41,464 nt of DNA from Comamonadaceae bacterium. GTDB taxonomy: Bacteria; Pseudomonadota; Gammaproteobacteria; Burkholderiales; Burkholderiaceae_C. Position numbers and translations under genes: made by a program. The first letter of the stretch is position 1; the number at the start of each line of letters is the position of its first letter. Shown here in pieces: positions 3 to 39,981 of the stretch. Location of the stretch: assembly GCA_027490555.1 (NCBI GenBank), contig JAIXXW010000300.1, positions 1-41,464 of the forward strand, written 5' to 3'. The notes below the pieces were generated by a model. The model was not told where the DNA came from, ran no database searches, and worked only from the letters and a program-made list of their open reading frames with translations.

Positions 3-119
3 GACATCCAGCCCGGCATGACCGCATCGGTCGAGATCAAGATGGGCGAACGCAGCGTCTTGAGCTACCTGCTCAAGCCGGTGGTCAAAACCATGTCAGA
101 GTCCCTGGGCGAGCGCTGA
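3..119 (+). CDS. 3' end of HlyD-family type I secretion membrane fusion protein (partial, starts before window)
   Basis: Frame from nt 3 reads DIQPGMTASVEIKMGERSVLSYLLKPVVKTMSESLGER-stop (TGA 117-119). This is the typical HlyD/LapC C-terminus (PGMxAxVEIxxGxRxVLxYLLxP...xLxER). Not in the ORF track because it has no start in the window. Confidence 0.9.
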   Translation, partial: DIQPGMTASVEIKMGERSVLSYLLKPVVKTMSESLGER

Positions 120-125: not shown

Positions 126-827
126 TCATCTGGGGCTGATGTTGATGGGTGAGTTCAGCCTGTAGCCATAGCCCTTGATGGCTTTGATCACGGAGTTCGG
201 GGCTCCGACATCGACCATTTTTTTCCGGACCCGGCTCAGCCGCACTTCCACGCTGGCTTTGCTGGGCAGGGATTCGGACTGTCCCAAATGTGTGGCCACT
301 TGCCACGACTGGAGTGTTTGCCCGGGTGCTCTAGCCAAAGCTTCGATGAGCTTGAGCTCACTGTGGGTCAGTGTGATCTCCCCCAGGGGGCCAGAAAGCA
401 GCGATTTGCCGGTGTGCAGGCAAATGCCGCTGGACGTGATGTCAGGGTTTCCCCTGATTCTCCGAGCCATGGCCTTGACGATCGAGCAGAGCTCGCTGGG
501 GTGGATGGGCTTGGTCAAATAAAGATCAGCACCGGTCTCGTAGCCTTGAAGGCGATCATTGATGTCCGTCATCGCGGTCAACAAAATGATGGCCGCTTCG
601 GGCTGGCTCGCCCGGATCCGCCGTGCCAAGCTGAAACCGTCTTCACCGGGCAGATTCAGATCGATCAAATAAAGATCGGGCGTCTGCTGCACCGAGTCTT
701 CGACATCCTCGGCACAGGCCAATCCTGTGCACGCATGGCCCTCACGCTGCAGGACGTCCACGAGTGCCTCACGAAGTGAATCATTGTCTTCAATGATCAA
801 AACAACCAAGGATTGCAGGGGAAACAT
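126..827 (-). CDS. OmpR/PhoB-family DNA-binding response regulator (orphan in this window)
   Basis: 233 aa. Receiver motifs IIEDN, LYLIDLNLPGEDG (phospho-Asp), LLTA, GADLYLTKP. C-terminal winged helix LTHSELKLIEAL...SVEVRLSRVRKK...IKAIKGYGYRL. Confidence 0.93.
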   Translation of the reverse strand: MFPLQSLVVLIIEDNDSLREALVDVLQREGHACTGLACAEDVEDSVQQTPDLYLIDLNLPGEDGFSLARRIRASQPEAAIILLTAMTDINDRLQGYETGADLYLTKPIHPSELCSIVKAMARRIRGNPDITSSGICLHTGKSLLSGPLGEITLTHSELKLIEALARAPGQTLQSWQVATHLGQSESLPSKASVEVRLSRVRKKMVDVGAPNSVIKAIKGYGYRLNSPINISPR

Positions 828-975: not shown

Positions 976-3480
976 ATGGACAAGTTTCGTTTCCCCCGTC
1001 GCGCTGTGGCCACTGCCGTTTTGTTGCTGTCCACCTACGCTGCCGCAGGTCAAGTCAATGACCTGAAAATCCAGGCCACCGATGCCGGCATCGAGTTGCA
1101 ACTGGATTCTGTGGTGGGCACTGTCCAGCGCACGGGCCTGTCCCGTGACGGACGCCACTTTGTCATTGAACTGACGGGCGTGAAGCCAGAGCAGGTGCAG
1201 GCCTTGGTGGCCAAAAATCCAAAGACTTCGGGCTTGTTGGCCGATGTCTTTGTGCGCCCCTTGGGTCAGGACGGCGCCCGTCTGGTCATTGGTTTGGGAG
1301 AAAGCGCGGCGGTTGACCGTGAAATGCTGGTCGCCAAAGGCGCGGGCCAGGTGCAAAAAGCCATCACCCTGACGCGTACCACCGTGCCTTTTGACCTCAC
1401 CGCTGCGAGCAGCCAGGTGGCCGGCAATGAGTGGCGCGCGCAGCTTCAGGGCGGGGCACAGTTCTCTGCGTCTGCGCAGCAATCCGCTGACAACAGCATC
1501 ACCCTGGTGATGGAGCAGATGACAGTGGCCCGTGCAGAGCGGGCTCTTGCAGGTCTGCGCTCTCAGGCCGACTGGGTCAAGTCTGTGGCCGTGCAGGCGC
1601 AGGGCCAGGGCGTTCGGGCGGTTGTCGAGTTCCAGCGCCCCATCGAGTTGGCCAGCACTGACCGTGCCGTGAGCCCCAATGGTGTCCAGCAGTCTTTGCG
1701 CGTGCGCAATGCCCCAGCCCTGGATGCCACTGGCATTGCCGGGGTGAAAGTCAAGGCCATTGAGGCCAGAGTGGGCAGCGGTGCGGCCAATGTGATGTTG
1801 GTCGGCGCGGTCGGTTTGGAGGCCAGAGCCTTGCCCGGAGCAACATCCCAAGAAGTACGCCTGAGCTTGCGCGGCGTGAACCGCAAGCGTGCCGATGAGC
1901 TGGTGGCCGATTTCCGTCCCACACATCCCGATGTCGTGGGTGCCACGGTCGTCTCGGGTGACCAGCGCTCCAGTGTCATTGCCATCCGTTTGGCCCGCCC
2001 GATGACGGGTGAGGCCGTGGTGCAAGCGCAAGCCAATGGCGATGTCAGCGTGCGCCTGGGCGCGCCCACGGCCATGGCCGCCAGAACAACTGCGGCCACG
2101 CCAGTGCCTCAGGCCGCTGCGCCCAGTGTTTCTGCCAAGGCCATCGTTTTGGCGCCCGTGGCTCCGCCGGATGCGCCTGCCTCAGCCGCTGCCGCTGCGC
2201 CCGCCAAAACCCTCGCTTTGATGGATGCATTGACCCTGGCCGAGGCCAAGGACCCCAAACTTTCTGCCGCCCGCAGTGAATTGGCCGCCAAGCTGGAGAC
2301 CAAAGCACAAGCGCGTGCCGGTTACATGCCTAAAGTGGTTCTGGACGCGGCAACCAACCGCGTTGACCAAAGTACGTCCCCCTTTGCCGTTTCCACCACT
2401 TCGCAGCGTAACTTCAACACCCGCAATGCCTCACTGACCATCACCCAGCCTGTCGTGCGTTTGGCCGCTGGTGTCCAAATCACCCAATCGGAGCGCATCG
2501 CTGAGCAGGCCCGACTGACTTTTGCTGCCAGTGAGCAAGATTTGTTGGTTCGTTTGTCGGCCGCCTACTTGAGCGTGATGGCGGCCCAAGATGGTGTCAA
2601 CGTGGCGCGCGCCGAGCGCGAAGCGTTGGAAAAGCAATACCAGTTGGCAGTGACCCGTCAACGCTCGGGTTTGGCCAACGTGACTGAAATCAGCGACACG
2701 GAAGCACGCTTCGCTGTCAGCAAAGCACGCGAAATTGAAGCTGCCAACAACTTGGCCGATGCCCGCATGGCTTTGCGCGAGATTGTCGGCACCGACATCG
2801 GTGAAATCAAAGCCGTGGTGCGCGAATTTGTCGCGGTCATGCCCACCCCCAGCGACCCTGAAGCATGGAAAGCCGCTGCCCTTCAGCAAAACCTGAATGT
2901 CATGGCCCGCCAGCGCGCCAGCGAAGTGGCCATGCTGGAAGTCCGCAAACAGCAATCTGCCTATGCCCCGACGGTGGATGTGGTCGCTTCCGCCAACAAC
3001 AGCCGTCAGGGTGACTTCTTGGCAGGCGGCTCCTTCACGGGTGGTTTCAGCTCGCAAGGCAATACCGTGGGTGTGCGCATGAACTGGCCCTTGTTTGAAG
3101 GTGGCATGACCCAGTCGCAGGTGCGTGAAGCCACAGCGCGGCTGAACAAGGCGGACCAGGAACTTGAGGCCGAGCGTCTGGCTGCAGAGCGTCAGGCTGC
3201 TTCTTCCTTGCTGTCGGTCAGTGCCAGCTCGCGATTGATAGAAGCCTTGCGCGCCTCTTTGACAGCCCAGGAGACCGCATTGGCCGCCAAGACCCGGGGC
3301 ATGGAGGCGGGCCTCTTCAGCGTCGTGCAAGTGGCCGATGCCTACCGTCTGATGTTCTCGGCCCAACGCGACTTTCTGAAGGCGCGTTATGACTATTTGC
3401 TCAACCGCGTCAAGCTCAAGCAATCCATTGGTGCCCTGACTCGCCAGGATGTCGCGGACATCGCTGAATTGATCAACTGA
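976..3480 (+). CDS. TolC-family outer membrane channel with ~400-aa N-terminal extension (three AMIN-like repeats + Pro/Ala linker)
   Basis: Sec signal MDKFRFPRRAVATAVLLLSTYAAA. C-terminal ~430 aa is TolC-like (LMDALTLAEAKDPKLSAAR, QARAGYMPKV, AYAPTVDV, GVRMNWPLFEGG, ARYDYLLNRVKLKQSIG). The N-terminal part has three ~110-aa units with AMIN-like strands (RHFVIELTGV...GARLVIGL; ITLVMEQM...GVRAVVEF; VRLSLRGV...SVIAIRL). Confidence 0.88.
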   Translation: MDKFRFPRRAVATAVLLLSTYAAAGQVNDLKIQATDAGIELQLDSVVGTVQRTGLSRDGRHFVIELTGVKPEQVQALVAKNPKTSGLLADVFVRPLGQDGARLVIGLGESAAVDREMLVAKGAGQVQKAITLTRTTVPFDLTAASSQVAGNEWRAQLQGGAQFSASAQQSADNSITLVMEQMTVARAERALAGLRSQADWVKSVAVQAQGQGVRAVVEFQRPIELASTDRAVSPNGVQQSLRVRNAPALDATGIAGVKVKAIEARVGSGAANVMLVGAVGLEARALPGATSQEVRLSLRGVNRKRADELVADFRPTHPDVVGATVVSGDQRSSVIAIRLARPMTGEAVVQAQANGDVSVRLGAPTAMAARTTAATPVPQAAAPSVSAKAIVLAPVAPPDAPASAAAAAPAKTLALMDALTLAEAKDPKLSAARSELAAKLETKAQARAGYMPKVVLDAATNRVDQSTSPFAVSTTSQRNFNTRNASLTITQPVVRLAAGVQITQSERIAEQARLTFAASEQDLLVRLSAAYLSVMAAQDGVNVARAEREALEKQYQLAVTRQRSGLANVTEISDTEARFAVSKAREIEAANNLADARMALREIVGTDIGEIKAVVREFVAVMPTPSDPEAWKAAALQQNLNVMARQRASEVAMLEVRKQQSAYAPTVDVVASANNSRQGDFLAGGSFTGGFSSQGNTVGVRMNWPLFEGGMTQSQVREATARLNKADQELEAERLAAERQAASSLLSVSASSRLIEALRASLTAQETALAAKTRGMEAGLFSVVQVADAYRLMFSAQRDFLKARYDYLLNRVKLKQSIGALTRQDVADIAELIN

Positions 3481-3554
3481 TCACCCGACAGCACCCATTC
3501 CAGCGCAATCGCAAACCACAACAACAAGAATCCATTTCCGATTTGGAGAACTGC

Positions 3555-6500
3555 ATGCCCCCCCACATCAATGACACTACACCTGCCCAAAGACTGCGCC
3601 GTCTGCTTGGCGTCAAGGACAAAAGCCACTCGCGCGCCTTGAAGCGCCACAGGCACGGTGTCAGGGTCGATGCGCTGGAGCCTCGCGTCATGCTCTCTGC
3701 GGAGTGGATGGCCTTGCCAGGCGCTCTGGACCGGCATCAAACCTTTTTGGTGGAGCCCAATTTCCACGCTGAAGCGTCCAACACCACGTTCATGCCCTTG
3801 ATCGATGGCTTGACGCGCCAAGAGCAGGAGACGAAGTCCAACGAAGTGCTGTTTGTGGATGCGGGGGTGCAAGACAGCCAGAAGTTGGTGTCTGATTTGC
3901 TGGCTTCACGCAACAACGGCGCATCGCCCACCTTCATGGATGTGGTGGTGCTCGATGCGGCCAGCGATGGTTTGACCCAGATCGGCCAGTGGTTGTCGCA
4001 ACGCTCGGACATCCGTGCTGTGCACGTGATCAGCCACGGCAGCGATGGTGTTTTGCAAATCGGCAATTCCTTGATCGATGCGCAATTGTTGTCGGAGCGC
4101 GCGGCGGATGTGGCCGCCTGGTCTGGCGCACTCACCCAGGATGCAGACTTTCTGATTTATGGCTGTGATGTGGCGAAAACCGCCCAGGGCCAATCGATGC
4201 TCGACCAACTGGCGCGTCTGACCGGGGCCGATGTGGCCGCCTCGGTCGATGTGACCGCAGGTGTTGCGGCCGACTGGGACTTGGAGTTCCATACCGGTCT
4301 GATCGAAGCGTCGGCGCTGTCGGCCTTGAGCTACCAGCCCACTTTGGCGATCGACGCCGCCGACCTCAAGCTCAGCAATGACGACGCCAACATGGCCAAT
4401 GACAACAGCCATGTCTCTTTGCAGGAGCAATGGCTCACCGCGCTCAATGGCTTGGAAGCCGTGATCGACCAGGCCCTGTCGGATGCCTTGATCAACCAGA
4501 AGTTGCCTGGCCTGAACATGAGCGTCAACGAGATGTTGCGCCTGGACACGGCCTCCAACACTTCCGAACAATGGCTCGATTGGCAACTTGCCCAAGCGGC
4601 CAATGCTTATTTTGTGGCAGCCGCCAATGAAGGCGGTGCCGATCTGGCTGGACTGGCCGAGGCCATCGAGACCCGCATCAAAGACTTGCTGCTGCCCACC
4701 GGCACCACCCAATTGCCGTGGGTGATCAATGTGTCTGCCCAAGTGGTGGACGCCAATGGCACGCCCACAGCCCGACTGACCTTGGATGTGTCGGTGCTGG
4801 TGAACGACAGCCTGCCTTTTGCCAAAGGCACGGCAGGCCAAGAGGGCGGTATCCCCACGATTGCCAACTTTGACGGCACCGAAATGGGTTCCTTGTCCAC
4901 CCGTGTCAGCGCAGTGCTGCTCACACGCATCGACATGGCCATGGCCAACTTGGCTTCCGGCGCAGCGGGCGCGAATTTTCTGTACGAGGGGCAAGCCAAC
5001 GGCACGGTGGCAGCCAACTTGGCGACCCGTTTGGTGTTGGAGCGATTTGATCTCGGCGTTCAGGCCAAAACCGGCGCGAATGCGGCCCAAGGTTTTGGCT
5101 ATGACCTGCAGGCAGGCGTTTCGGCACGCCTGCGTGCGGCTGACGGCAGCCTGGGAGTGACCCTGGCCGACTGGCTGGCCAACGGCAACAGCCGTCTGGA
5201 CATCGCCCACCAATCCAGCCTGGTCGGCAGTGCCGCCGCTGGCACGGGCAGCAACGACCTGACACCGCTGAAGACCGACACCCAGGGCCTGATCGGCGTC
5301 TGGCAAGAAGGCCTGCTCAGGGCCCAGACGGTCAACGACATCGCCTTGACGGGGCAAGTGCGCAATGCGTTCAACAACATCCTGGATGCCATGTCGCGCC
5401 TGGGGTCGCAGATCGATGGTCAGGCCGAGTTCAACGTCACCTTGCCGATGGCGGATCTGACCTATAACCAGTTGCTCACGCTCAACGATGGCCGCTCCTT
5501 GGGTGATGTGCTGGCATTCAAACTGGCCGGTGGTGGCAATGTGCTGACGGATTATCTGGCCCGGACCAATGCGCCCACGCTGACCGGCCTGCTGGATCGC
5601 ATGCGCCAGTACCTGTCGGGCTCGGGTGATTACTCTGGTCTTGAGGCGATGATGTCGGCCGAATTGGCGGCCAGCTTTTTGAGCGCCAGCGGTTTCACCG
5701 GCCAAACAGCGACCGTGCGACTCAATGGCACGCTCAGCCGCCAGTTCATGGCGCGTTTTGCTTTCAACGGCATGCTCGACGATGTGAGCCTGGCATTCGC
5801 CCTGGGGCAAGGCGTGCCCATGGAGCAGTCGGTCGGCATCGACATGCTGTGGGCGGTCACCCTGGACAACACGACCGCGCAGGCCCAGATCACTTCCAGC
5901 ACCGTCGAGATCAACACCTTGACCGTCAATGTCGATGCTGTCGGCTCCACGGTGGCCGATGCCCAGTATCGAACCACCTCCGGCAACGAGAACCGCCTCA
6001 ACGGCATGCCCGCGCCAGCAGTCAACAACCTGGACGCTCCCGTGGTCATTGGCATGCTCGATGCCCGTTTGCAAGGTACGCTCAATTTCCAAACCGACAC
6101 CGTGGTGATCAGCGTCAATGGTGGCAATGCCATGAACATTGCCGACATCTACAGCGTGGCGCAGATCAATGACAGCCGGGCTGACGACATTGTCAGCAAT
6201 GATCGCAATGCCTTCGTGTCGTTGGGCAATTCCACCCGTTGGAATCCTCAAATTGAGAACTGGGCTCAACATTCGTGGGGCGGGTGGTACATCGCCAGTT
6301 ATGGCAACTGGGAAAGCGGTGCACCTCGCGTTTACGCCTCTGCCGATCTGACCCTGGCTGGTGATCTGGCCGGTACCCCACTGAGCATCTTGGCCGGGGC
6401 CACACCGCGCATTGTGGCGTTCCACGATGCTTACCGCGATGGCTCGTCCAGCGATTCCCGCTACGCCTACGACTGGCAAACCCTGCGCACAGTCAACAGC

Positions 6501-18500: not shown

Positions 18501-21500
18501 GGTGATGGCCGCCGCTGGGTGTGGCTGGGTCAGTCCGTGGAAAACCGGTCGCTGACCACAGCGGGTCAGACACTGCGTGGTGGTACCGGTAACGACATGC
18601 AGATGGGCGCCCTCGGCAGTGATTTGTTCAATGACGGCGGCACGGGCGAAGGCAACGATACCATCGTTGGCGATCTGGGACGCATGCGGGTGGACTTCAT
18701 CTACCGCACTCCCCTGTACGTCGAGTCCTTTGGCCGCCGCGGTGGTGGTAACGACACCATCAACTTGGGCACTGGCAGCAATATCGTGATCGCCGGGGCT
18801 GGTGACGATACGGTCAGTGGCAATGACAAGGCCGACAGCGTTAACATCGTCATGGGCGACAACGGCGCCATCAAGTTCCAGTCGGTTTACGCCAATGTGG
18901 GCGGCACAAGCAACAATTGGATCTTGCGTGCCAATTTGCAGGACCCGGATGCGCCCGGCTACAGCAACCACATGATCGAGTACATCCGCGCCGAGCAGGA
19001 CGAAGCGCCGGAAGACGGTCGCATCGACGATGTGCAAGTGGGTCAGGCTGGCAGGGACGTGATCAACCTGAGCAGTGGCTCGGGCGTGGTCTTTGGCGGA
19101 TGGGGCGCAGACACCATCACCTTTGGTGCCAAAGCTTCTGTCGAGTCCAACACCCGCTACATCGCCGGTGACCATGCCGAAGTGATAGGTGACGCCAACG
19201 GTGGCATCGTGGCCTTCCGCACGCTGGACACGGCGCGCGCCAATGGTGGTGACGATTTCATCCAGGTGGGTGACCAGAATGACAGCCTGGGCCGAGACCT
19301 GGGCCGCAACTACGTCATGGGTGGCATGGCCTCTGACACCGTGTTGATCTCGGCTGGTCTGGACGACGCGGGCGTGCTGCGCTTTGGCGCAGCCAGCAGT
19401 GAAGATGTGGTGGTGGGTGACAACGGTGAAATGCTGCGCACCGAGAGCATGGTGTCTGCACAGTTGATTCCCAACCTGATGCTGCGCTTGCAGACCATCC
19501 AAAACGACAAGGGCGATGGCGACCAGATTGCGCTGGGTCATGGCACCAAAGTGGTACTGGGCGGTGTGGACGGTGACACCATCGAGGCGCTCAATGGCGA
19601 TCACCTTGTGTTGGGCGACAACGGTCGACTGGACTATGACAGCGTGGCCGACAATGGTGTTTTGCGCACTGTGACCACGACCGACATCGTGATCGGTGGC
19701 GATGACCTGATCACCCTGGGTGAAGGGTATACCCTGGTGGCTGGCGGCAAGGGCAACGACACCATTGATGTCGCAGCCACCCGTGCTGGCGATGCCACAG
19801 GTTTGGCAGTACGCGACGAGCAAGGGCGTCTGCGCTATGTGGCGGGCGTCTTGGGCGTTGCAGCTGTGCGCGAAGTGCAGCGCGATCCCGCCATTGCACT
19901 TGACAACAGTGGACGTACCGGACGTTTCATCTCGGGTGACAACACCTTGATGTCCTTCGATGACCAGGGTGGCTTGATTGCCATGCTGACCACCGACCCG
20001 ATTGCGGCCACGGGTGGCTCCGACAGCATCCGCATTGGCATGGCCAACACGGCGGCTTTCGACCTGGGCTTGCAAGCGGTGGTGGGCGGCATGGGCAATG
20101 ACCGCATCGAAATCAGCCGGGATGGTGTCTCCAGCGATGTGATTTTGGGTGACAACGGCGACTACCGCCGCGGCACACGCACCTACGGTCTGACCCATGT
20201 GGTCAGCACACGCACCGAGGCTGGAGGCTCAGACAGCATCAGCACAGGTGCAGGTGACAAGATCATCCTGGGTGGCTTCGGTACGGATGTGATCTCGGCA
20301 GCTACGCTTGACAATGTCAACTTGTCCAGCGGCAATGGTGAGACAACAGCCACCCGGATTGATAACCGCAGCATCGTGATGGGCGACTCGGGTCAGGTTC
20401 TGTTCGACCTGTCGGGCTCAGGAGCCTTGTCAGAAATCACTTCGATCGCCTTGGCCATGGGCGGCAACGACCTTGTGTCGCTGGGTGATGGAGACATCAC
20501 CTTTGTGGGTGGAATCGGCAACGACCATTTGGTCGTGACACCCAGCAACTTGGACGCCAGCGCCATCCGCGTGGCTTTGGGTGACAACGCCACATTGCGC
20601 TTTGCGGGCATCACGGACAAGTCGGCCCAGGCGGAAAACTTGATCACTGCCCAAACCCTGGATCAGACGATCGCAACCGGTGGTTCAGATGTCATGACCG
20701 TGGGTCGTGCAGGTGCCACCATGGGCCAAGCCATCTTGATGGGTGGCATGGGTGCTGACAGACTCACGGTGTTGGGCAGCACGGCTGACAGTGTGATGGT
20801 CGGCGACAACGGTCTGGTCAATGTGGTTCAAGTGGCGAGCACACGCAGCATCACAGGCCAGCAGTCCATGTCCTGGATCAACCATCAGTCTTCGAACGGT
20901 GTGTCGATGCTCACCAGCGTCGAATCTCTCTTGCCTGAGCAAGGCACCGGGGACAGTCTGGCGACTGTGAACGGCAAGGCCATCATGGTGGGTGGCGCAG
21001 GTGCCGATCAAATCAGCGCTGGACGGGGTCAGGGCGTTGTCTTTGGTGACGGTGCACGCATCAGCTATGCCGACGGCGCTTTGCGCGAAGCGATCAGCTT
21101 TGGGCTGGCCAGTGGTTTGGGCGACCAGATTGAATTGGGCGCTGGCAGTGGTGCTGATGGTCACAAAGTGGTGGTGGGGGGTGCAGGTGCGGACACGGTC
21201 ACCGTGTCCTCCACACAAGGCACCAACGCATTGCCTTCCTTGCGCACCGAGCGTGTGGTCGCCGGAGACAATGCGACCTTGGGCTTTGACGATCAAGGAC
21301 GCTTGGTGAACATGGATACGCCAGATGCCGACATCGCCACATCGGGTGATGACGCGCTGACCGTCCTGATTTCAGGGGTCAATGTGGATCTGAATGCCGA
21401 TGCGGTGTTCATGGCGGGTGGTCTGGGCAATGACCGCGTGGTGGTCAATGCCAGTGGCAAGACAGTAACGGTGGCCAGCGGTGACAATTTGCAAGTGAGC

Positions 21501-24125: not shown

Positions 24126-24148
24126 TTTTTTAAAGGAGAAAGTAGCCC

Positions 24149-24454
24149 ATGGCAAAAGATGAAATGAACCCGATCCCCGGCACCACGGGGGCGATTGTGC
24201 AACCCAAGATTGAGTGGGATGACACCACCTCGACAACACATTACGCCAACATTGGCAGTGTGATGGGCCGCCGTGAAGAAATGATCATGGTTTTTGGCAA
24301 TGCCGAAAGCTGGAAGCAAGGCAGTGAGTCGATCAACGTCAAGGTCACGAACCGTGTGGTCATGAACCCCTTCACGCTCAAGCGCTTTTCCAGAATCCTG
24401 TCTCAGGGTGTTGAACAGTACGAGAGCCGTTTTGGCGAAATCAAACTCGATTGA
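24149..24454 (+). CDS. DUF3467-family small protein (possible secretion chaperone)
   Basis: 101 aa with IEWDD...HYAN...REEMIMVFG...RVVMNPFTLKRFSRIL...YESRFGEI, matching the DUF3467 pattern as I recall it. Strong RBS AAGGAG at 24133-24138. Confidence 0.85.
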   Translation: MAKDEMNPIPGTTGAIVQPKIEWDDTTSTTHYANIGSVMGRREEMIMVFGNAESWKQGSESINVKVTNRVVMNPFTLKRFSRILSQGVEQYESRFGEIKLD

Positions 24455-24489
24455 TTTGAGTGAACTCCATCCGTCTGCGATATCTTTGA

Positions 24490-26343
24490 ATGACCGTTCA
24501 ATCTGCCAAAGCCCAAGATAACAAGGCGACTGTGTCGCCCTTGTCTGAATGGGACCACCTTCGTGAGCCACAAGATGTGAGCCGGCACAGCCATGCCTGG
24601 CTCCATCTGATGGTGGAGGGCATGGGAGGGCCGGATGCGGTCTTAGAGGGCGTCGTGGTATTGGGACAAGCCAACCTGGGGCCATACCAGCCTCAGGCCC
24701 AGTGGCCCAGGGTGCAACCGGTTTCTGACGCTTTGGCCAGGGCGGCAGAGCAGGCTTTGGCCATTCGGGCTTCGGTTCAGGTTCCGGGTACCGCCTTCAT
24801 TTGGGCAGTGCCTCTGATTTCGGATGGTGATTTGTACGGTGTTGTGGCCGTGCGTTTCAACTTGCCGGCCATGCCCCCTCGGGCAGTGGCCTGGATGCGT
24901 TGGGGGCAAGGTTGGCTGCTGGCCAATGCCATGCGAGTTCATCAAGCCCAGTCTTCTTTGCAGGAAGACCTGATGTTTTTGGTGGACACCATCATGTTGG
25001 CCATGTCGGGTGACGACCTGAGGATGACGGTGCAAGCCGTGTTGATCGAGGTGGCACACCGGCTGAACGCCGAACGCATTTCTGTCGGATTGGCAGAAAA
25101 TTCAGGCAATGCCAAGCTTTGGTCGATCTCCCATGTCGGAGATTTTTCTGGAAGGTTGTCCCTGACACGTGGCCTTGAGTCGGCCATGGACGAGTCATTG
25201 GACCAGGCATCTGCCATTGATTACAGCCAGCAAACTGGCCTCCTGGCCGACGGCCAGATGCTGATCACCCGAGCCCACAAAGACTATCTCCAGATGTCGG
25301 GCAGTGGTGTGGTTTTGAGTATTCCTCACGCTGTGGACGCCAAGCTGTCCATGGTTTTTGTATTTGAATGGGCCGACGAAGCCACCATCCAGAACCAGCG
25401 CCATCTGGCTGCCGGTTTGGTGCCTGTCATGGCCAAAGTTTTTGCCGAACGTCGCCAGGCGGATGTGTCTTGGTTACGCCGTTTGGTGAACGACACCCGG
25501 GACGCATTGGCTTGGGTTGTGGGCCCACGCCATGCATGGTTCAAGATTCTGGGCTTGGCGGTCATTGCGGCCCTGGTGGCCATGTCTTTGCTGCGAATGC
25601 CCCTGGAAGTGTCTGCCGATGCCCGACTGGAGGGCGCAGTGGTGCGTCAGATCCACGCGCCGTTTGATGGTTTTGTGTCGCAATCCTTCCTCAGGGCTGG
25701 ACAAGAGGTGCCCAAGGGCGGTGTTCTGGCTTTGTTGGATGACCGTGATCTGAAGCTGGAGGTGGAGCGCTGGAACAGCGAACAGGCCCAGTTCCGTAAC
25801 CAGTATCAAGATGCACAGGCTCAAAAAAATCTGGCCCAAGTCCAGATCAATCTGGCGCAAGGGCGGCAGGCCCAGGCACAGAAGTCTCTGTCTGAATCCA
25901 ACTTGAGCCGCTCCCGTGTCAGCTCGCCCATGGCGGGGATCATTGTGTCGGGAGATTTGTCACAGCAACTCGGTGCACCTGTGCAGAAAGGACAGTTGCT
26001 GTTTGAAGTGGCGCCGCTCAACGATTACCGTGTGGTGTTGCAAGTGAACGAGCGTGACATCGATTTGCTGGAAGTCGGGCAAGAGGGTCGATTGATGCTG
26101 ACCGCCTTAGCGGGCAAGGAGATCCCGCTCAAGATCACTCAGATCACGCCTGTGACCGAGGTTTTCGAGGGCAGCAACCGTTTCCGAGTCGAGGCTTCGG
26201 TAGAGCCAGGCGAAGAGACCCTGCGGCCTGGCATGAAAGGGATTGCACGCCTGGACACTGGCGAGGCCCGCATTGTGTGGGTTTGGTTGCGCGGGTTGGT
26301 TGAGTGGTCCCGCTTGACTTTGTGGAAATGGTGGGGTCTGTGA
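24490..26343 (+). CDS. GAF-like domain / HlyD-family membrane fusion protein fusion
   Basis: 617 aa. N-terminal ~340 aa with GAF-like segments (AVPLISDGDLYGVVAV; ESAMDESLDQ...VLSIP), one TM (WFKILGLAVIAALVAMSLL), barrel-sandwich halves IHAPFDGFV...GGVLALLD and VSSPMAGIIV, coiled hairpin, beta-barrel end LRPGMKG. Confidence 0.87.
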   Translation: MTVQSAKAQDNKATVSPLSEWDHLREPQDVSRHSHAWLHLMVEGMGGPDAVLEGVVVLGQANLGPYQPQAQWPRVQPVSDALARAAEQALAIRASVQVPGTAFIWAVPLISDGDLYGVVAVRFNLPAMPPRAVAWMRWGQGWLLANAMRVHQAQSSLQEDLMFLVDTIMLAMSGDDLRMTVQAVLIEVAHRLNAERISVGLAENSGNAKLWSISHVGDFSGRLSLTRGLESAMDESLDQASAIDYSQQTGLLADGQMLITRAHKDYLQMSGSGVVLSIPHAVDAKLSMVFVFEWADEATIQNQRHLAAGLVPVMAKVFAERRQADVSWLRRLVNDTRDALAWVVGPRHAWFKILGLAVIAALVAMSLLRMPLEVSADARLEGAVVRQIHAPFDGFVSQSFLRAGQEVPKGGVLALLDDRDLKLEVERWNSEQAQFRNQYQDAQAQKNLAQVQINLAQGRQAQAQKSLSESNLSRSRVSSPMAGIIVSGDLSQQLGAPVQKGQLLFEVAPLNDYRVVLQVNERDIDLLEVGQEGRLMLTALAGKEIPLKITQITPVTEVFEGSNRFRVEASVEPGEETLRPGMKGIARLDTGEARIVWVWLRGLVEWSRLTLWKWWGL

Positions 26344-28490
26344 AAACAGTTTTCTCAGACGCCTGGTACCGTGCGGCCCCGCTCAAGCCGGTGTTGCGTG
26401 CGCAGGTGCGCATCCACCGCCATACCTACCGTGGCCAGCGTTGGCATGTGGTGCAGGATTTGACCACGGGCCAGTTTTTGCGTTTTGACGCCATGGCGTA
26501 CCGTGCCATCAGTCTGATGGACGGTGAACGTTCGGTCGACGACATTTGGCACATTTTGGTGCGTGGCCATGCCGACGAAGCGCCATCACAAGATGATTTG
26601 ATCAAGCTCATGACCCAGCTTTATCAGGCCAACTTGCTGCGAACAGACCAACGCGCCGACGTGACCGAACTGGTTGAGCGGGGCGAACGTAACCGGTGGA
26701 ACAAGCTCAAGAGCATGTTCATGAATCCTATGTCGGTGCGCTTGCCCTTGTTCAGCCCTGACCGAGAATTGTCGGTGCTGGTCAATGCCATGCCCGCTTG
26801 GTTCTGGAAATTGGCTCTGGCCCTTTGGGCTGTGTTGATCGGTGTGGGCGGATTCACTGTGGCCATGCATTGGCCAGCCCTGACCGATGACTTGAGCGCG
26901 CAGGTCTTCACGCCTGACAAATTGCTCTGGCTGGTTTTGATCTTCCCAGTGCTCAAGGCCATCCATGAGTTTGGTCACTGTCTGGCACTCAAGGCCTTGG
27001 GTGGTACGGTGCATGAAGTGGGGGTCATGTTTTTGATCTTTGTGCCCATCCCGTACGTTGAAGCTTCACAGTCGTACACCTTTGCGAACAAATGGCAGCG
27101 CATGCTGGTTGGTGCTGCGGGCATGGTCATTGAAATCGGTGTGGCAGCCCTGTGTGTTTTGCTGTGGGTGGATGCCTCTGCAGGCGTCTTCAAATCGGTG
27201 TTGCACCAGGTGATCATCCTGGCCAGTGTCACCACCGTGGTTTTCAATGCCAACCCACTGCTGCGTTTCGATGGCTATTACATCCTGTCTGATTGGCTGG
27301 AAATGCCCAATTTGGCTGCGCGAGCCAACAAGGTGGTTCAGTCATGGGTCAAGCGGCGACTTTTCGGAGTGGAAGAAAATCCGCCCCAGGAAACGGCCGC
27401 CGAGCTGCGCTGGCTCGTGCCTTATGCGTTCATGTCGCACATCTACCGCCTGTTTGTGACATTCACCATTGTCTTTCTGGTGGCCGAACATTATTTGGGT
27501 GTGGGTTTGGTGTTGGCGGGTTGGTCGATCTGGAACTCGCTGCTCAAACCACTTTACAACTACTTCCAGTACCTGGCGATGGACGTGGGTTTGCATGGCA
27601 GAAGGCAACGCGCAGTCGGTATCACGCTGTTGTCCTTCGTGGCAACGGGGGCCATGGCATTTGGGGTCCCAGTGGATTCGGCCACCAACGCACAGGGCGT
27701 GGTCTGGGCCTCCGAGCAATCCAAAGTGTTGGTTCCTGTGGCTTGCTTTGGAGACCGTCAATTCGTCAAGCCCGGTGAGCGCGTTCAGACCGGTCAGCCT
27801 TTGTTTGCCTGCATTGACCCCGAGTACCAATCCGAAGTGGTCAAAGAGCAGGCCCGGCTGGAGGAGTTCGAGCGCAAGACGGCCTTGGCCAGAACGTTGG
27901 ACCGTGTCCAATGGGCCACTGCCCAAAGCCAACAACAGCTTCAGGCCGAGAGGCTCAAGCGTGCGCGTCAACGCGCCAAGGAAACTGTGGTGGTCAGTCC
28001 GCACGACGGTTGGTTTGTGCCCGTATCGACCGCACTCATCGAAGGACGGTATTTGTCACGGGGTGAACTGATTGCGCATGTGGTGGACCAGGCGCATTTG
28101 ACCATGATGACGGTGGTGGACCAGGCGACGGTGGATTTGGTTCGGCAAAACACCCTGAACGTGGAGGTGAGACTGGATCAGAACATCTGGAAAACTTACC
28201 CCAGCCAGGTTTTGCGCGAAGTACCCTCTGGCCTGAGGGAGTTGCCCAGCATGGCATTGGCCATTGACGGTGGCGGTGAAATTGGCATCGATCCCAAGGC
28301 GGCCAATGACCAGAAATCACCCATTGCCGTCGACCATTTTTTCCAGTTTGAACTGCGGCCCCTTCAGGAGCTATTGCCCGAGAGCTTGGGTGGCCGGGTG
28401 TATGTGCGCTTTGAGCATCCCCCAGAGCCGATGGCCGTGCAGTGGTACCGCGTGGCGAGACAAATGTTCATGAAGAGGTTTGCGATATGA
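26340..28490 (+). CDS. PqqD-like domain / M50 (site-2) zinc metalloprotease / MFP-like fusion membrane protein
   Basis: GTG 26340 overlaps the upstream TGA (GTGA) and is preferred to 26304. HEFGH and NANPLLRFDGYY M50 motifs; several TM helices; N-terminal WHVVQDLTTGQFLRF...MDGERSVDDIW...LYQANLL PqqD-like winged helix; C-terminal FVKPGERVQTGQPL...VVSPHDG lipoyl-like halves. Confidence 0.88.
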   Translation: MKTVFSDAWYRAAPLKPVLRAQVRIHRHTYRGQRWHVVQDLTTGQFLRFDAMAYRAISLMDGERSVDDIWHILVRGHADEAPSQDDLIKLMTQLYQANLLRTDQRADVTELVERGERNRWNKLKSMFMNPMSVRLPLFSPDRELSVLVNAMPAWFWKLALALWAVLIGVGGFTVAMHWPALTDDLSAQVFTPDKLLWLVLIFPVLKAIHEFGHCLALKALGGTVHEVGVMFLIFVPIPYVEASQSYTFANKWQRMLVGAAGMVIEIGVAALCVLLWVDASAGVFKSVLHQVIILASVTTVVFNANPLLRFDGYYILSDWLEMPNLAARANKVVQSWVKRRLFGVEENPPQETAAELRWLVPYAFMSHIYRLFVTFTIVFLVAEHYLGVGLVLAGWSIWNSLLKPLYNYFQYLAMDVGLHGRRQRAVGITLLSFVATGAMAFGVPVDSATNAQGVVWASEQSKVLVPVACFGDRQFVKPGERVQTGQPLFACIDPEYQSEVVKEQARLEEFERKTALARTLDRVQWATAQSQQQLQAERLKRARQRAKETVVVSPHDGWFVPVSTALIEGRYLSRGELIAHVVDQAHLTMMTVVDQATVDLVRQNTLNVEVRLDQNIWKTYPSQVLREVPSGLRELPSMALAIDGGGEIGIDPKAANDQKSPIAVDHFFQFELRPLQELLPESLGGRVYVRFEHPPEPMAVQWYRVARQMFMKRFAI

Positions 28491-30481
28491 GCGCCTTGGC
28501 TTTGCATTTGATCTCTGATCCCTATCCCCAAAACAGGGATTGGGGCATTGCGCCGATGGCCGAGCGTGTGCTTGGACGTCTACAGTCTTGGGCGTGGTTG
28601 AGCCTGACGGACACGCGCTGGCATGCCAAACGGTTTGTTGGCAAGGTGCGTGCACGCTTGGCTGAAATTCAGACACTCCATGACGAAGAAGCGATCGAAA
28701 GATGGGCACAAAGTCGCCTGATGTCACGCAAGTACGGCCTCGCACATTTTGACCAGGTGGCTGAATGCTTTGCCTGGACATGCCTCAAATCCAAACAGAC
28801 ATTGGGTATCGAGCCGTTCGACACGCAAATCCGGGCCGCGTACAGTCTGATTCGGCAGCGTGCCGTTGAATTGGACACAGGCGAGGGTAAAACCCTGACA
28901 GCTGCACTTGCCGCGATTGCTGCTGCCCAGGCTGGTTTGCGTGTCCATGTCATCACCGCCAACGACTACTTGGCCCAACGAGATGCGGTGGAGTTGGCCC
29001 CGCTTTACAGGGCCATGGGCTTTGAGGTGAACTCCGTTCTGGAGGCCACCCCGATTCAGCAGCGGCCGACGCTCTACCAGAGCCCGGTTGTTTACTGCAG
29101 CAACAAGACCATCACGTTTGATTACTTGCGTGACAGGGTGATCTTTGCTGAACGGCTGGAGCCTTTGCGATTGGGTTTTGACAAATGGCTGGGACGTGGT
29201 GAGAGATCGAACTTGCCCGGCTTGATGTTCGCGATTTTGGACGAAGTGGACAGTGTTCTGGTCGATGAGGCGCGTACCCCTTTGGTGTTGTCACGCACAG
29301 TTGAAGACCCTGAGCACAAGATTTATGTGCGTCAGGCGGTGGTGATGGCGCGCATGCTGGAGCATGGGCGCGATTTCATCATGCACCCGGTATCCAAAAG
29401 ACCAGTGCTGACCGAAGCTGGGGCCAAAGGCTTGCCCGATCTGGTGGCCCAATTGGAGGAGCCGTCCATCATTTGGCGCAGTGTTTGGCGCACAGAAGAG
29501 GCCATGACACAAGCTTTGTACGCTTTGTACGGGTTGGTCTGCGATGTGGACTATGTGGTGCGCGACGGCAAAGTCATGATCGTGGATGAGAACACAGGCC
29601 GCACCATGGCTGACCGATCATGGGAAATGGGCTTGCACCAAATGGTGGAAGTCAAAGAAGGGCTGGAGATGACGGGCTCTAGGGAGACCATGGCCCGCAT
29701 CAGCTACCAACTATTTTTCCGTCGCTATTTGGGTCTTTGCGGTATGTCGGGCACTTGCAGGGAGTTGTCCAGCGAGTTTTTTGACATCTATGGCATGCCT
29801 TCCTTGCGCGTGCCACCACGCAATCCTTCGCGCAGGCGTGCGCTGGGTACGCGTTTGTACCGCAGCAGCCAGGAACGTTGGCAAGCTTGTTTGGCGGCCG
29901 TTGAACGTGAAGTTGCCCGCCGAAGACCCGTGCTTGTGGGAACCAAAACCGTGCGCGAATCCGAGATGCTGAGCAGTCTGCTGTCGCAAAACGGGATTGA
30001 CCACCAAGTGCTCAATGCCAAGCAAGATGAGGGCGAGGCGCTGGCGATTGCCGCTGCGGGTGCGAGTGGGAAAGTGATGATCGCCACGAACATGGCCGGG
30101 CGCGGAACAGACATCAAGCTCACCGATGAGGCACGACAGGCCGGTGGGTTGCACGTGATCATCACCGAAATGCACGACAACGCCAGGGTCCAGCGGCAGT
30201 TGATTGGGCGTTGCGCACGCCAGGGTGATCCGGGAAGTTGGGAGGCCATTTTTTCAGCCGATGATCCTTTTTTTGTACAGCAAGGTGAGGGCTGGAGCCG
30301 TTTGCTATCGGTTCTGGCTGTGGGGCAATCCTGGCGAGGTTTGCGCCATGGCTTGGCCATGCTGGTGGTGAAGTGGCTGCAAGCCAGCGTGGAGCGGCAG
30401 CACCGTCGCACCCGCATGCATCTTTTGGAGTCAGATTTGGACAGACGAAACGCGATGGGATTTACGGGGATTTCCGAATGA
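28487..30481 (+). CDS. Accessory SecA-like ATPase (664 aa, lacks the canonical C-terminal part)
   Basis: ATG 28487 overlaps the upstream stop (ATGA). SecA motifs TGEGKTL, HVITANDYLAQRD, DEVDSVLVDEARTPL, IVDENTGR...GLHQMVEVKEG, ISYQLFFRRY, GMSGT, VLNAKQ, IATNMAGRGTDIKL, GGLHVI, QLIGRCARQGDPGS. Confidence 0.93.
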   Translation: MSALALHLISDPYPQNRDWGIAPMAERVLGRLQSWAWLSLTDTRWHAKRFVGKVRARLAEIQTLHDEEAIERWAQSRLMSRKYGLAHFDQVAECFAWTCLKSKQTLGIEPFDTQIRAAYSLIRQRAVELDTGEGKTLTAALAAIAAAQAGLRVHVITANDYLAQRDAVELAPLYRAMGFEVNSVLEATPIQQRPTLYQSPVVYCSNKTITFDYLRDRVIFAERLEPLRLGFDKWLGRGERSNLPGLMFAILDEVDSVLVDEARTPLVLSRTVEDPEHKIYVRQAVVMARMLEHGRDFIMHPVSKRPVLTEAGAKGLPDLVAQLEEPSIIWRSVWRTEEAMTQALYALYGLVCDVDYVVRDGKVMIVDENTGRTMADRSWEMGLHQMVEVKEGLEMTGSRETMARISYQLFFRRYLGLCGMSGTCRELSSEFFDIYGMPSLRVPPRNPSRRRALGTRLYRSSQERWQACLAAVEREVARRRPVLVGTKTVRESEMLSSLLSQNGIDHQVLNAKQDEGEALAIAAAGASGKVMIATNMAGRGTDIKLTDEARQAGGLHVIITEMHDNARVQRQLIGRCARQGDPGSWEAIFSADDPFFVQQGEGWSRLLSVLAVGQSWRGLRHGLAMLVVKWLQASVERQHRRTRMHLLESDLDRRNAMGFTGISE

Positions 30482-31200
30482 AAAAGAAGAGACTCAGACA
30501 TGATTTGTTATGGGGTTTGGCACTGTGGCTGGGTGTGTCTGCGACGGGATGGGCGCAGGATTCGGGGTGCCTGATCGAGCCATCGGCTGATCTGAAACTG
30601 GGGGTGCCCGCTGACGGTGTGCTGGACCGCGTGACGGTCGAGCGTGGTGATGTGGTGCGCAAAGGGCAGTTGCTGGGTCGACTGAACATCGACCTGGAGA
30701 CCGCCCAAGCCAGGACGTTGGCCACGAAGCTGGCATTTGGCGAGCGCAAATTGGAGCGAAATCTGGAATTGCAGTCACAAAACATGATTGCGCCACAAGA
30801 GCTCGATGAAATCGCGACGAACCAGAAAGTGGCCGAGCTTGAGTTTGCCGAAAGCCAAGAGCGCATCAAGTTGCGCAACATCCACAGCCCGGTGGATGGC
30901 GTGGTGGTCGATGTCTACTACCAGGTGGGCGATCTCATCAAGCAAGAGAAGATTTTCAGGGTTGCCCGCTTGGACCCTTTGTATGTAGAGCTTATTTTGC
31001 CCGCAGCCCGTTTTGGCCAGATCAAGTCTGGCCAGTCGATGCGGGTAGTGACTGAATTAGGAGCCCGCGAACTCAGGGGCGATGTGGGGGCTGTCGACAA
31101 AGTCATCGACGCTGCCAGTTCGACCTTTCGCGTGCGCCTGATAGTTCCAAACCCAGACAATCGAGTGCCATCCGGCCAACGTTGTCGCATTCGATTTTGA
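30478..31200 (+). CDS. Periplasmic adaptor (MFP/RND-type) with cleavable signal peptide and short hairpin
   Basis: ATG 30478 overlaps the SecA stop (ATGA). MKKKRLRHDLLWGLALWLGVSATGWA signal; CLIEPS...VPADGVLDRVTVERGDVVRKGQLL, IHSPVDGVV, LDPLYVE, VDKVIDAASSTFRVRL, NPDNRVPSG. Confidence 0.88.
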   Translation: MKKKRLRHDLLWGLALWLGVSATGWAQDSGCLIEPSADLKLGVPADGVLDRVTVERGDVVRKGQLLGRLNIDLETAQARTLATKLAFGERKLERNLELQSQNMIAPQELDEIATNQKVAELEFAESQERIKLRNIHSPVDGVVVDVYYQVGDLIKQEKIFRVARLDPLYVELILPAARFGQIKSGQSMRVVTELGARELRGDVGAVDKVIDAASSTFRVRLIVPNPDNRVPSGQRCRIRF

Positions 31201-31209
31201 TACCTAACC

Positions 31210-33210: not shown

Positions 33211-33237
33211 TCTGGTCAGCCATCTAGGACGAATCAC

Positions 33238-39528: not shown

Positions 39529-39532
39529 TATG

Positions 39533-39569
39533 TCCAATGCCGCTCCTCTCTATGGGGAGCGGTATTGGA
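39533..39569. terminator. GC-rich hairpin immediately after the tpsA stop
   Basis: tccaatgccgctcc (39533-39546) pairs with ggagcggtattgga (39556-39569), one G-U. No U-tract, so it may be a stabiliser rather than a terminator. Confidence 0.6.
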
Positions 39570-39571
39570 TT

Positions 39572-39607
39572 CATAAAAAATGCCACCTTGGGGTGGCATT
39601 TTTTATG
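39572..39607. terminator. Bidirectional rho-independent terminator
   Basis: Perfect 16-bp inverted repeat cataaaaaatgccacc-ttgg-ggtggcattttttatg with A6/T6 tracts, between convergent genes. Confidence 0.9.
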
Positions 39608-39624
39608 GGTGGCAGATGTTGAAT

Positions 39625-39981
39625 TTATTCAGTTGTTGGCCCGGTGATGGAGCCGTCATTCGTTCCGTGGGGCTGCGTGGACTGCCAGTAACTCAGCTGG
39701 ATTGGCCGCACGAGTGAATACAGCCACAGACCCAATGCCACCAGGCTTCCGAAAAACGCAGTCAGCAGCAGGGCCATCATCAAACCCACCAGGGGCGATA
39801 ACAGCAATCCGGACCAGCCTGTGAGTGCGTGTCCATTCATCTTCACGGCGCCCATGCCAAAAGTGGATAAAACTCCCATGAGCGTCATCAATGGCACCAA
39901 TGAGCACACGGTGCCGCATGCGACGAGTTTGTAAACAGAGCTGGTGGAAAGTTGACGGACTGAATGGCTGTGGAAGGTCAT
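39625..39981 (-). CDS. Small hypothetical membrane protein (2 TM)
   Basis: From ATG 39981 (MTFHSHSVRQLSTSSVYKL...); two long hydrophobic segments (LVACGTVCSLVPLMTLMGVLSTF; LLLSPLVGLMMALLLTAFFGSLVALGLWLY). Converges on the terminator. Confidence 0.75.
   Translation of the reverse strand: MTFHSHSVRQLSTSSVYKLVACGTVCSLVPLMTLMGVLSTFGMGAVKMNGHALTGWSGLLLSPLVGLMMALLLTAFFGSLVALGLWLYSLVRPIQLSYWQSTQPHGTNDGSITGPTTE

What the first reader, a model, noticed from the sequence alone, without database searches (positions are those of the whole stretch)
976..31200. Candidate non-canonical secretion system: TolC + three MFPs + M50 protease + truncated SecA, no ABC transporter, next to a giant LEPR-XLL substrate
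Seen: one co-directional cluster tolC - giant protein - DUF3467 - GAF/MFP - PqqD-like/M50/MFP - secA-like - MFP, with the last four genes coupled by 4-nt stop/start overlaps (26340, 28487, 30478). Known: classical T1SS needs an ABC ATPase with MFP and TolC; none is encoded in this cluster. Inference: the SecA paralogue is the motor, the polytopic M50 fusion is the inner-membrane conduit and leader peptidase, the MFPs bridge to TolC, and the 6.9k-aa protein is exported N-terminal leader first. From memory, an association of secondary SecA_DEAD proteins with T1SS-related genes was reported bioinformatically (Kamneva et al. 2015; please verify), and I know of no mechanistic characterisation. The gene association may therefore not be new, but the mechanism appears open.
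Basis: partly seen in the sequence, partly recalled or inferred. Interest (0 to 1): 0.92.

Follow-up and report, generated by a model that had tools for sequence, protein, structure and literature searches.

The report
Leader-reading exporter for giant proteins
This gene cluster encodes an outer-membrane channel, three periplasmic adaptors (one fused to a leader-binding domain and a membrane protease) and a shortened SecA motor beside a 6,856-residue protein, and it likely exports such giants by recognising their N-terminal "LEPR-XLL" tag, with the SecA motor probably an optional booster because a sister form of the cluster has none.

Summary
The cluster is real and as described. It is the locus of Kamneva et al. 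2015, who already proposed SecA as ATPase and M50 as pore but named no cargo. This scan also reported it on other DNA.

Tested here:
- LEPR-XLL proteins track the RRE-M50-MFP gene: 44 of 49 LEPR-positive genomes among 251 relatives, and 12 of 12 in another phylum, where the tagged genes lie scattered.
- The PqqD-like domain is modelled as a leader-binding RRE fold. Zinc-protease motifs are intact in 69 of 69 homologues.
- A sister clade (27 tree rows) keeps TolC, three MFPs, M50 and a tagged giant but has neither SecA paralogue nor ABC nearby. Its leader sub-motif differs (FD[GA]A versus L[SA]AD). SecA is therefore not the defining motor.
- Five near-complete genomes carry the module and LEPR proteins with no canonical HlyD found.

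Export direction is open, because the cargo also has C-terminal RTX repeats and clade-specific tails.

The parts
976..3480 (+). TolC-family outer-membrane factor with AMIN-like N-terminal half (834 aa)
   Evidence: TIGR01844 260 bits, over cut-off; OEP x2 and AMIN; same AMIN-OEP build upstream of the giant in L084
3555..24125 (+). Giant putative cargo, 6,856 aa, very acidic, no hydrophobic N-terminal signal peptide
   Evidence: ORF and ribosome-binding site; domains; the only hydrophobic stretch found is at residues 4481-4499
3669..3704 (+). LEPR-XLL leader motif (D-A-L-E-P-R-V-M-L-S-A-E, residues 39-50) after a basic stretch; SecA-clade sub-motif
   Evidence: NF012209 over cut-off; alignment of 40 leaders; sub-motif counts
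3846..4316 (+). DUF4347 domain (residues 98-254)
   Evidence: Pfam E 3.8e-44
17427..22013 (+). RTX-type Ca2+-binding repeat region, 16 GGxGxD repeats (residues 4625-6153)
22359..22538 (+). Best of three VCBS repeats
   Evidence: TIGR01965, 95 bits
24066..24122 (+). Trp-containing C-terminal tail (RIQW twice) after a Pro/Ala-rich linker; Trp-rich tails mark the SecA clade
   Evidence: 20 of 22 SecA-type tails have Trp in the last 45 residues, against 5 of 14 SecA-less tails
24149..24454 (+). DUF3467 protein, 101 aa; optional, and SapC takes a similar place in other loci; inferred chaperone or adaptor
   Evidence: Pfam E 1.5e-18; in 5 of 40 SecA-type loci, SapC in 8 others, never both
24490..26343 (+). 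GAF-MFP: cytoplasmic GAF-like region, one TM helix (350-368), periplasmic adaptor
   Evidence: in 39 of 40 SecA-type loci; second GAF homologous to that of the SecA-less clade, hhalign 85%
26340..28490 (+). RRE-M50-MFP fusion, the core marker: RRE (residues 15-102), site-2-type metalloprotease with HEFGH (209-213) and NANPLLRFDG (303-312), periplasmic adaptor (444-714)
   Evidence: model pLDDT 91; VIA-align Z 10.5 to lasso RRE 6jx3, 9.5 to RseP 9j83, 14.4 to MexA 1vf7; PqqD 3g2b E 6e-8; motifs intact in 69 of 69
28487..30481 (+). Short SecA paralogue (664 aa): both nucleotide-binding domains and preprotein-binding domain intact; ends 84 residues after motif VI, with no wing domain or two-helix finger
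   Evidence: aligns to solved SecA 3jux only to residue 649 of 822; no SecA_SW; motifs and 78-96-residue tail in 30 homologues
30478..31200 (+). Stand-alone MFP, 240 aa, with an apparent Sec signal peptide (read from the sequence, no predictor run)
   Evidence: TIGR01730 122 bits, over cut-off
3..119 (+). Context, not part of the module: 3' end of a canonical T1SS HlyD
31210..39528 (+). Context, not part of the module: TpsB/TpsA two-partner secretion pair in the same direction
   Evidence: POTRA_2, ShlB and TPS domains; TpsB seen only in the two nearest relatives, L001 and L064

Best explanation
The cluster likely encodes an ABC-free, envelope-spanning exporter in which the RRE-M50-MFP protein would bind the giant protein's N-terminal LEPR-XLL leader and would cut it, three different adaptors are predicted to form the periplasmic tunnel to a TolC channel, and the short SecA likely feeds the chain in only one of two subtypes. 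Shown here: gene order, intact catalytic motifs, modelled domain folds, tight coupling of leader to RRE-M50-MFP in two phyla, two clades with different leader sub-motifs, and absence of SecA from one clade. Inferred: leader binding; cleavage near LLS/AD; a channel built from the TM helices of the M50 and GAF proteins; N-terminus-first threading; ATP-driven feeding by the SecA paralogue for the longest cargo; and pulling by Ca2+-driven folding of the RTX region outside. The energy source of the SecA-less clade is unexplained (housekeeping SecA, proton motive force or a folding ratchet).
For: Coupling: among 251 related genomes, 44 have both M50-MFP and LEPR-XLL, 14 only the former, 5 only the latter (marginal hits of 17-21 bits in ORFs of 145-903 aa) and 188 neither; 52 of 68 LEPR hits lie within 60 kb of an M50-MFP gene on the same strand. 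In the phylum of G547, 12 of 12 LEPR-positive genomes have M50-MFP and 0 of 76 M50-negative ones have LEPR; there up to 17 tagged genes lie scattered, which co-inheritance of one operon does not explain. The N-terminal domain superposes on leader-bound lasso RREs and PqqD. The best NCBIfam relative, matched by all 51 members, is the daptide RRE-protease, reported to remove a leader with motif ELExMEAP; 36 of 38 SecA-clade leaders read hydrophobic-E-x-hydrophobic-E. The leader sub-motif splits with the clades: S/A at +7 in 38 of 38 against D in 18 of 18. Five genomes 99-100% complete have the module and LEPR proteins and no canonical HlyD, all candidates scored. LEPRxLL giants of Chlorobium chlorochromatii are reported as excreted with no known signal, and that organism carries the Kamneva genes.
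Against: No binding, cleavage or export was measured or modelled. RTX repeats and conserved tails at the C-terminus fit C-first export, which the Chlorobium preprint proposes; it also reports periplasmic residence. No ATPase is linked to the SecA-less clade. 52 of 57 module-bearing genomes also have a canonical HlyD, against 43 of 60 without the module, and one such system is next door here. A TolC gene lies in only about 10 of 40 SecA-type clusters. The clade-by-motif split can arise from co-inheritance alone, and kin are not independent. 13 of 25 M50-positive genomes in the second phylum had no NF012209 hit.
Confidence: 0.5

Rival explanations
1. The same machine exports the giant C-terminus first, using the conserved tail as signal; the LEPR-XLL leader leaves last and is a cytoplasmic tether held by the RRE until the M50 protease releases the adhesin, a counterpart of the LapA/LapG retention switch.
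For: C-terminal RTX and VCBS repeats as in T1SS cargo; tails differ by clade (Trp-rich in 20 of 22; an [FL]S-x-Q[LF]-type helix in 8 of 14 against 0 of 22); C-first export is proposed for the Chlorobium LEPRxLL giants.
Against: The leader is far better conserved than the tail. Many short LEPR-tagged proteins occur in the second phylum (some frames are cut by contig ends), which suits a targeting signal more than a tether. SecA motors normally take N-terminal signals (recalled).
Confidence: 0.25
2. A canonical ABC-type T1SS, here the one directly upstream, exports the giant through its RTX and C-terminal signal; the M50/MFP/SecA module only processes, anchors or senses it.
For: Complete OMF-ABC-HlyD operon upstream; RTX repeats; canonical HlyD in 52 of 57 and 27 of 30 module-bearing genomes.
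Against: A T1SS ABC lay in only 3 of 40 core loci and 0 of 20 upstream stretches. No canonical HlyD in G146, G086, G280, G297 or G325, and no T1SS ABC over cut-off there (for G146 and G086; only part of the candidates were scored). The upstream system has its own OMF and an RTX gene of its own. Background HlyD frequency is already 43 of 60.
Confidence: 0.1
3. Two-step route: a SecA (paralogue or housekeeping) pushes the giant through SecYEG after the leader is handed over, and the MFP-TolC part handles only the outer-membrane step from a periplasmic intermediate.
For: SecA keeps its preprotein-binding domain and ATPase motifs; periplasmic residence is reported for the Chlorobium proteins; this would explain the missing ATPase of the SecA-less clade.
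Against: The leader has no hydrophobic core. The paralogue lacks the wing and two-helix-finger region that engages SecY (recalled). TolC channels are closed to the periplasm unless opened by adaptors (recalled).
Confidence: 0.1
4. The module is a signalling or turnover device (regulated intramembrane proteolysis with a GAF sensor) that monitors the adhesin and does not transport it.
For: GAF and M50 domains are typical of signalling; Kamneva found only the GAF gene expressed in one organism.
Against: Three adaptors plus an OEP gene in most SecA-less loci, and no conserved sigma or anti-sigma gene among 80 neighbours scanned; genomes without any other T1SS still carry the giants.
Confidence: 0.05

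Closest known systems
Secondary SecA_DEAD / T1SS-related locus (Kamneva, Poudel and Ward 2015, PMC4452313; parts 1, 3, 4, 5 of 7 read, two supplement searches, file 15)
   Same: Same four genes (GAF-HlyD, M50-HlyD, SecA_DEAD without SecA_SW, HlyD), sometimes OEP, no ABC; same proposal of SecA as ATPase and M50 as pore.
   Different: In the parts read it names no cargo, no LEPR-XLL leader, no RRE domain, no SecA-less sister clade and no experiment. Three supplementary figures are pictures and could not be read.
Type I secretion of giant RTX adhesins (HlyBD-TolC; LapBCE/LapA)
   Same: TolC channel, MFP fold, giant acidic cargo with RTX and VCBS repeats and no Sec signal.
   Different: No ABC transporter; three RND-like or divergent adaptors in place of one HlyD (all far below the TIGR01843 cut-off); conserved N-terminal leader; built-in intramembrane protease.
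RRE-fused site-2 proteases of RiPP pathways (daptide MpaP/DapP, NF041824; epipeptide EpeP)
   Same: RRE + M50 architecture; best NCBIfam match for 51 of 51 members; similar acidic-hydrophobic leader (ELExMEAP); EpeP is thought to both cleave and export.
   Different: 166 bits against a cut-off of 300; fused to an MFP; the partner is a multi-thousand-residue protein and there are no modifying enzymes.
Canonical SecA and accessory SecA2
   Same: Walker A (TGEGKT), DEVD, TNMAGRGTD, motif VI and preprotein-binding domain.
   Different: No wing, two-helix finger or C-tail; no SecY2 in the locus; below all SecA and SecA2 cut-offs.
Giant symbiosis proteins Cag_663/Cag_665 of Chlorobium chlorochromatii (bioRxiv 10.64898/2026.03.19.712371; passages read)
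   Same: LEPRxLL N-terminus, neighbouring tolC and sapC, a recently acquired secA and hlyD, and reported excretion.
   Different: The authors propose C-first export through SapC-TolC-HlyD; the word 'peptidase' does not occur in the main text, and in the passages read the leader is not linked to an exporter. Its supplements were closed and may bear on this.

Membership tests
Kamneva secondary-SecA locus | SecA_DEAD protein lacking SecA_SW | tested here: met
Kamneva secondary-SecA locus | Adjacent M50-HlyD, GAF-HlyD and HlyD genes, no ABC in the locus | tested here: met
   a separate T1SS lies upstream
Kamneva secondary-SecA locus | SecA falls in their phylogenetic clade | not tested
   no SecA tree was built; assigned by domain content and gene order
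Canonical type I secretion system | Dedicated ABC transporter (HlyB/PrtD/LssB) in the operon | tested here: not met
   none at 976-31200; 3 of 40 homologous core loci have one nearby
Canonical type I secretion system | HlyD-type MFP over the family cut-off | tested here: not met
   TIGR01843 scores 45, 36 and 28 bits against 209
Canonical type I secretion system | TolC-family outer-membrane factor | tested here: met
   TIGR01844 over cut-off
Canonical type I secretion system | Cargo with RTX repeats and an uncleaved C-terminal signal | tested here: inconclusive
   RTX repeats present and tail conserved by clade; signal function not testable
M50 site-2 protease | HExxH and NxxPxxxxD zinc ligands in a polytopic fold | tested here: met
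   69 of 69 homologues; RseP match Z 9.5, rmsd 4.2 over 164 residues
M50 site-2 protease | Proteolytic activity on the leader | not testable with these tools
   needs an assay
RiPP recognition element | PqqD-like three-strand, three-helix fold | tested here: met
   (6jx3: Z 10.5, rmsd 2.7, 84 aligned); also in the SecA-less clade, hhalign 92.7%
RiPP recognition element | Binds a leader peptide | not tested
Daptide protease DapP (NF041824) | Score over cut-off and a daptide gene cluster | tested here: not met
   166 against 300 bits; no daptide enzymes in the window
Accessory Sec (SecA2/SecY2) | Full-length SecA2 with scaffold and wing, with or without SecY2 | tested here: not met
   below all SecA2 cut-offs, no SecA_SW, no SecY in the window

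The most novel reading that the evidence does not exclude
A distinct class of Gram-negative secretion system whose inner-membrane core is a RiPP-type leader reader and site-2 protease fused to an adaptor. It recognises LEPR-XLL as a general N-terminal export signal, comes in two subtypes with orthogonal leader codes (L[SA]AD with a truncated SecA motor; FD[GA]A with no linked ATPase), and exports the largest bacterial proteins known, including the 36,800-residue Chlorobium symbiosis protein.
Probability: 0.45. Interest if true: 0.92.

Novelty: new variant of a known kind. Interest (0 to 1): 0.68.

Why it matters
How proteins of 7,000-36,000 residues without a known signal leave the cell is open; the 2026 Chlorobium preprint reports that two LEPRxLL giants are excreted and says they lack known transport signals. 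The marker gene was found in 58 of 251 genomes of this family, 88 of 301 of the phylum and 25 of 101 of another phylum, so the route would be common. The results name a specific signal, a specific receptor domain and natural variants with and without SecA, which makes the question testable with a peptide-binding assay and a few deletions. If true, an intramembrane protease and a RiPP leader reader replace the ABC pump of type I secretion.

Tried and rejected
DUF3467 fold from a single sequence: pLDDT 46, not used; the Atlas returned only DUF3467 clusters; the Atlas search for the GAF region did not complete. RNA runs: none listed. Promoter and terminator scan of 23500-41464: at shuffle level, 6 against 4.9 and 21 against 20.2. 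Foldseek against PDB listed only MFP matches; the wide VIA-align search was needed for RRE and M50. The first gene-calling scripts were confused by shadow ORFs and were replaced by HMM searches on all ORFs. The threshold missed some short SecAs, so PF07517 was used. The careful tree did not finish; the quick IQ-TREE tree without bootstrap, midpoint-rooted, was used; L014-L043 (short duplicates) and frameshifted L050 were left out. The apparent M50-SecA fusion in L079 was not used because it may be an assembly frameshift. The canonical secA was not found in the own genome (84% complete); I take this as an assembly gap. Walker-A scan within 7 kb of 28 SecA-less M50 genes: no recurring ATPase. 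Paper searches: SecA_DEAD + secretion, 4 hits; LEPR-XLL, 2 listings only, not read (14); LEPRxLL, 1 (113); DUF3467, 1 listing only (15); M50 + HlyD + SecA + type I secretion, 2 reviews, one checked by passages and irrelevant, one listing only; DUF4347, 5, one checked by passages; two further term sets gave nothing specific. None describes a test of this module; subscription literature is not covered. The Omnitrophota giant-gene preprint (passages) describes wingless SecA domains inside giant proteins, a different arrangement.
Full report
Observation. The window is the whole contig C14 of an 84%-complete, 395-contig genome. The seven genes of the finding are present, co-directional and carry the named domains; the three 4-nt overlaps are real. 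The giant starts at ATG 3555 behind a GGAG site and is 6,856 aa long, with the LEPR-XLL motif at residue 41 after a basic stretch, DUF4347, 16 RTX-type repeats at 4625-6153, VCBS repeats and a tail with RIQW twice; it has no hydrophobic N-terminal segment. No ABC gene lies in the cluster. Two things were left out of the finding. A TpsB/TpsA pair follows at 31210-39528, and TpsB was seen only in the two nearest relatives. A canonical T1SS lies upstream: the window starts with a HlyD tail, a close metagenomic relative shows OMF-ABC-HlyD-regulator before this TolC, and own contig C288 matches that part.

Anatomy. The 716-aa fusion folds with high confidence (pLDDT 91). Its residues 15-102 superpose on leader-bound lasso-peptide RREs and PqqD (Z 10.5, 10.3, 9.3), 193-387 on RseP (Z 9.5) and 446-694 on MexA (Z 14.4); the first two scores are middling, but a sequence profile also finds PqqD (E 6e-8). 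HExxH and NxxPxxxxD are intact in 69 of 69 homologues. The SecA paralogue keeps Walker A, DEVD, TNMAGRGTD, motif VI and the preprotein-binding domain, but aligns to solved SecA only to residue 649 of 822 and stops 78-96 residues after motif VI in all 30 homologues where the motif was matched, ending in a conserved basic helix and F-x-G. It therefore lacks the wing and two-helix finger, whose role in SecY engagement I recall rather than tested.

Distribution. In 251 genomes of the family, 58 have the M50-MFP gene and 49 have LEPR-XLL over cut-off; 44 have both, 14 only M50-MFP, 5 only LEPR and 188 neither; 52 of 68 LEPR hits lie within 60 kb of an M50-MFP gene on the same strand (two extra pieces of one frameshifted gene were merged, 84 rows to 82 places). 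The 5 LEPR-only hits are marginal, and two of the 14 M50-only genomes have a leader below cut-off. The marker is in 88 of 301 genomes of the phylum. In the phylum of G547 (reached through locus L012, titled Phycisphaeraceae) it is in 25 of 101; all 12 LEPR-positive genomes are among these and none of the other 76 has a hit, and tagged genes are scattered, up to 17 per genome. That pattern suits a signal acting in trans. The other 13 M50-positive genomes there had no NF012209 hit.

Two subtypes. At 50 of 53 strong places SecA follows M50-MFP; the other three are cut by contig ends. In 40 fetched loci a GAF-MFP was found in 39 and a T1SS-type ABC nearby in 3; none was in 20 upstream stretches. 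DUF3467 was in 5 and SapC in 8, never together, and an OEP gene in about 10. The weaker hits form a second type: in 19 of 20 fetched loci (of 29 places; the twentieth is a frameshifted SecA type) the build is MFP(s)-GAF-like MFP-M50-MFP, mostly with an OEP gene and a giant alongside, with no SecA, no ABC exporter and no recurring P-loop protein nearby; eight further loci from the phylum sample agree. Sixteen family genomes with only this type have a single, canonical SecA_DEAD, as do 22 of 30 hand-picked near-complete phylum genomes, six of them single-contig. Their RRE and GAF domains are homologous to those of the SecA type. A tree of the RRE-M50 part gives a 27-row SecA-less group and a 49-row group of 48 SecA loci plus one, G526, which has the module and a tagged giant but no second SecA (SH-aLRT 100; quick tree, midpoint root). 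Leaders split the same way: hExhEPRxL[LY][SA]AD (S/A at +7 in 38 of 38, hExhE in 36 of 38) against LEPRx[ML]FD[GA]A (D in 18 of 18, hExhE in 0 of 18); genomes holding both types carry the matching leader beside each. Tails also split. SecA-type cargo frames are longer (median 6,335 aa, n=43, maximum 15,379, against 3,123, n=9, maximum 4,385; truncated frames included). Co-inheritance alone could give these splits, so they are leads, not proof of recognition.

Canonical T1SS as exporter. Canonical HlyD is in 52 of 57 module-bearing family genomes and 43 of 60 without the module. G146, G086, G280, G297 and G325 (99-100% complete, 3-70 contigs) have none with all candidates scored, no T1SS ABC over cut-off among those scored, and LEPR-tagged ORFs. 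This makes the upstream T1SS an unlikely obligatory route.

Mechanism. I commit to leader-first export through an RRE-M50-MFP core (0.5). The nearest characterised architecture, the daptide RRE-protease, is reported to remove a leader with motif ELExMEAP and is the best NCBIfam match of all 51 members, though below cut-off; the related EpeP is thought to cleave and export. The SecA paralogue is best read as a feeder for one subtype. The main rival (0.25) uses the same machine C-first with the leader as a releasable tether; RTX repeats, conserved tails and the Chlorobium model favour it. Export by a canonical T1SS (0.1), a two-step Sec route (0.1) and pure signalling (0.05) follow. Binding, cleavage, stoichiometry, direction and the energy source of the SecA-less type are all untested, and the complex prediction could not be run.

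Prior knowledge. Kamneva et al. 2015 describe the four-gene locus, the missing ABC and the SecA-ATPase/M50-pore idea, without cargo in the parts read. Their supplements list Chlorobium chlorochromatii CaD3 twice in the SecA tree, in three cluster trees and in the heat map. A 2026 preprint reports that this organism's two LEPRxLL giants are made and excreted, sit beside tolC and sapC, and lack known signals. Ten searches found no test of the module and no paper linking the leader to it. Earlier AI notes of this scan reported the system and the leader link on other DNA, one of them without an ATPase; I had found both subtypes before reading them.

Verdict. A real, widespread, untested T1SS-like module, already noted by computer in 2015. 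The cargo link, the RRE reading and the SecA-less sister clade with its own leader code go beyond that paper and make it testable. Novelty: new variant of a known kind. Interest 0.68; 0.92 if it proves to be a separate class of secretion system (probability 0.45).

Noticed in passing
window 31210-39528: TpsB/TpsA pair 9 nt behind the last MFP; with two canonical T1SS and a Calx-beta-like giant of more than 7,395 aa on own contig C288, which joins upstream, the region is an island with three kinds of protein-export system.
   Followed up: partly
window 976-2200: The TolC has a roughly 400-residue N-terminal extension with AMIN-like domains, also seen in L084; it may tie the channel to peptidoglycan (inferred).
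   Followed up: partly
window 126-827 (- strand): OmpR-family response regulator without a kinase, between the canonical T1SS and the cluster; TPR/BTAD regulators, GGDEF/EAL proteins and kinases occur upstream of giants in several relatives.
   Followed up: no
window 13737-13954 and 15491-15628: Perfect 15-nt (GEDTG, 14.5 copies) and 18-nt (7.7 copies) coding tandem repeats flanked by poly-Glu runs in the giant; likely variable-length acidic linkers.
   Followed up: no
L070, L071, L072, L074, L080 (SapC) and L065, L066, L001, L013 (DUF3467): SapC and DUF3467 occupy the same slot between giant and GAF-MFP and did not occur together, which suggests interchangeable chaperones.
   Followed up: partly
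L142 (G526): SecA-clade module with tagged giant but no SecA paralogue in a two-contig, 100%-complete genome: a natural SecA knock-out.
   Followed up: partly
G587, G607, G548: Genomes with 9-17 scattered LEPR-tagged ORFs, many in frames under 700 aa, and a single M50-MFP gene: a possible general secretome of this system.
   Followed up: no
window 39625-41047 (- strand): Small hydrophobic protein without family match and a GntR-family regulator; unrelated to the module.
   Followed up: no
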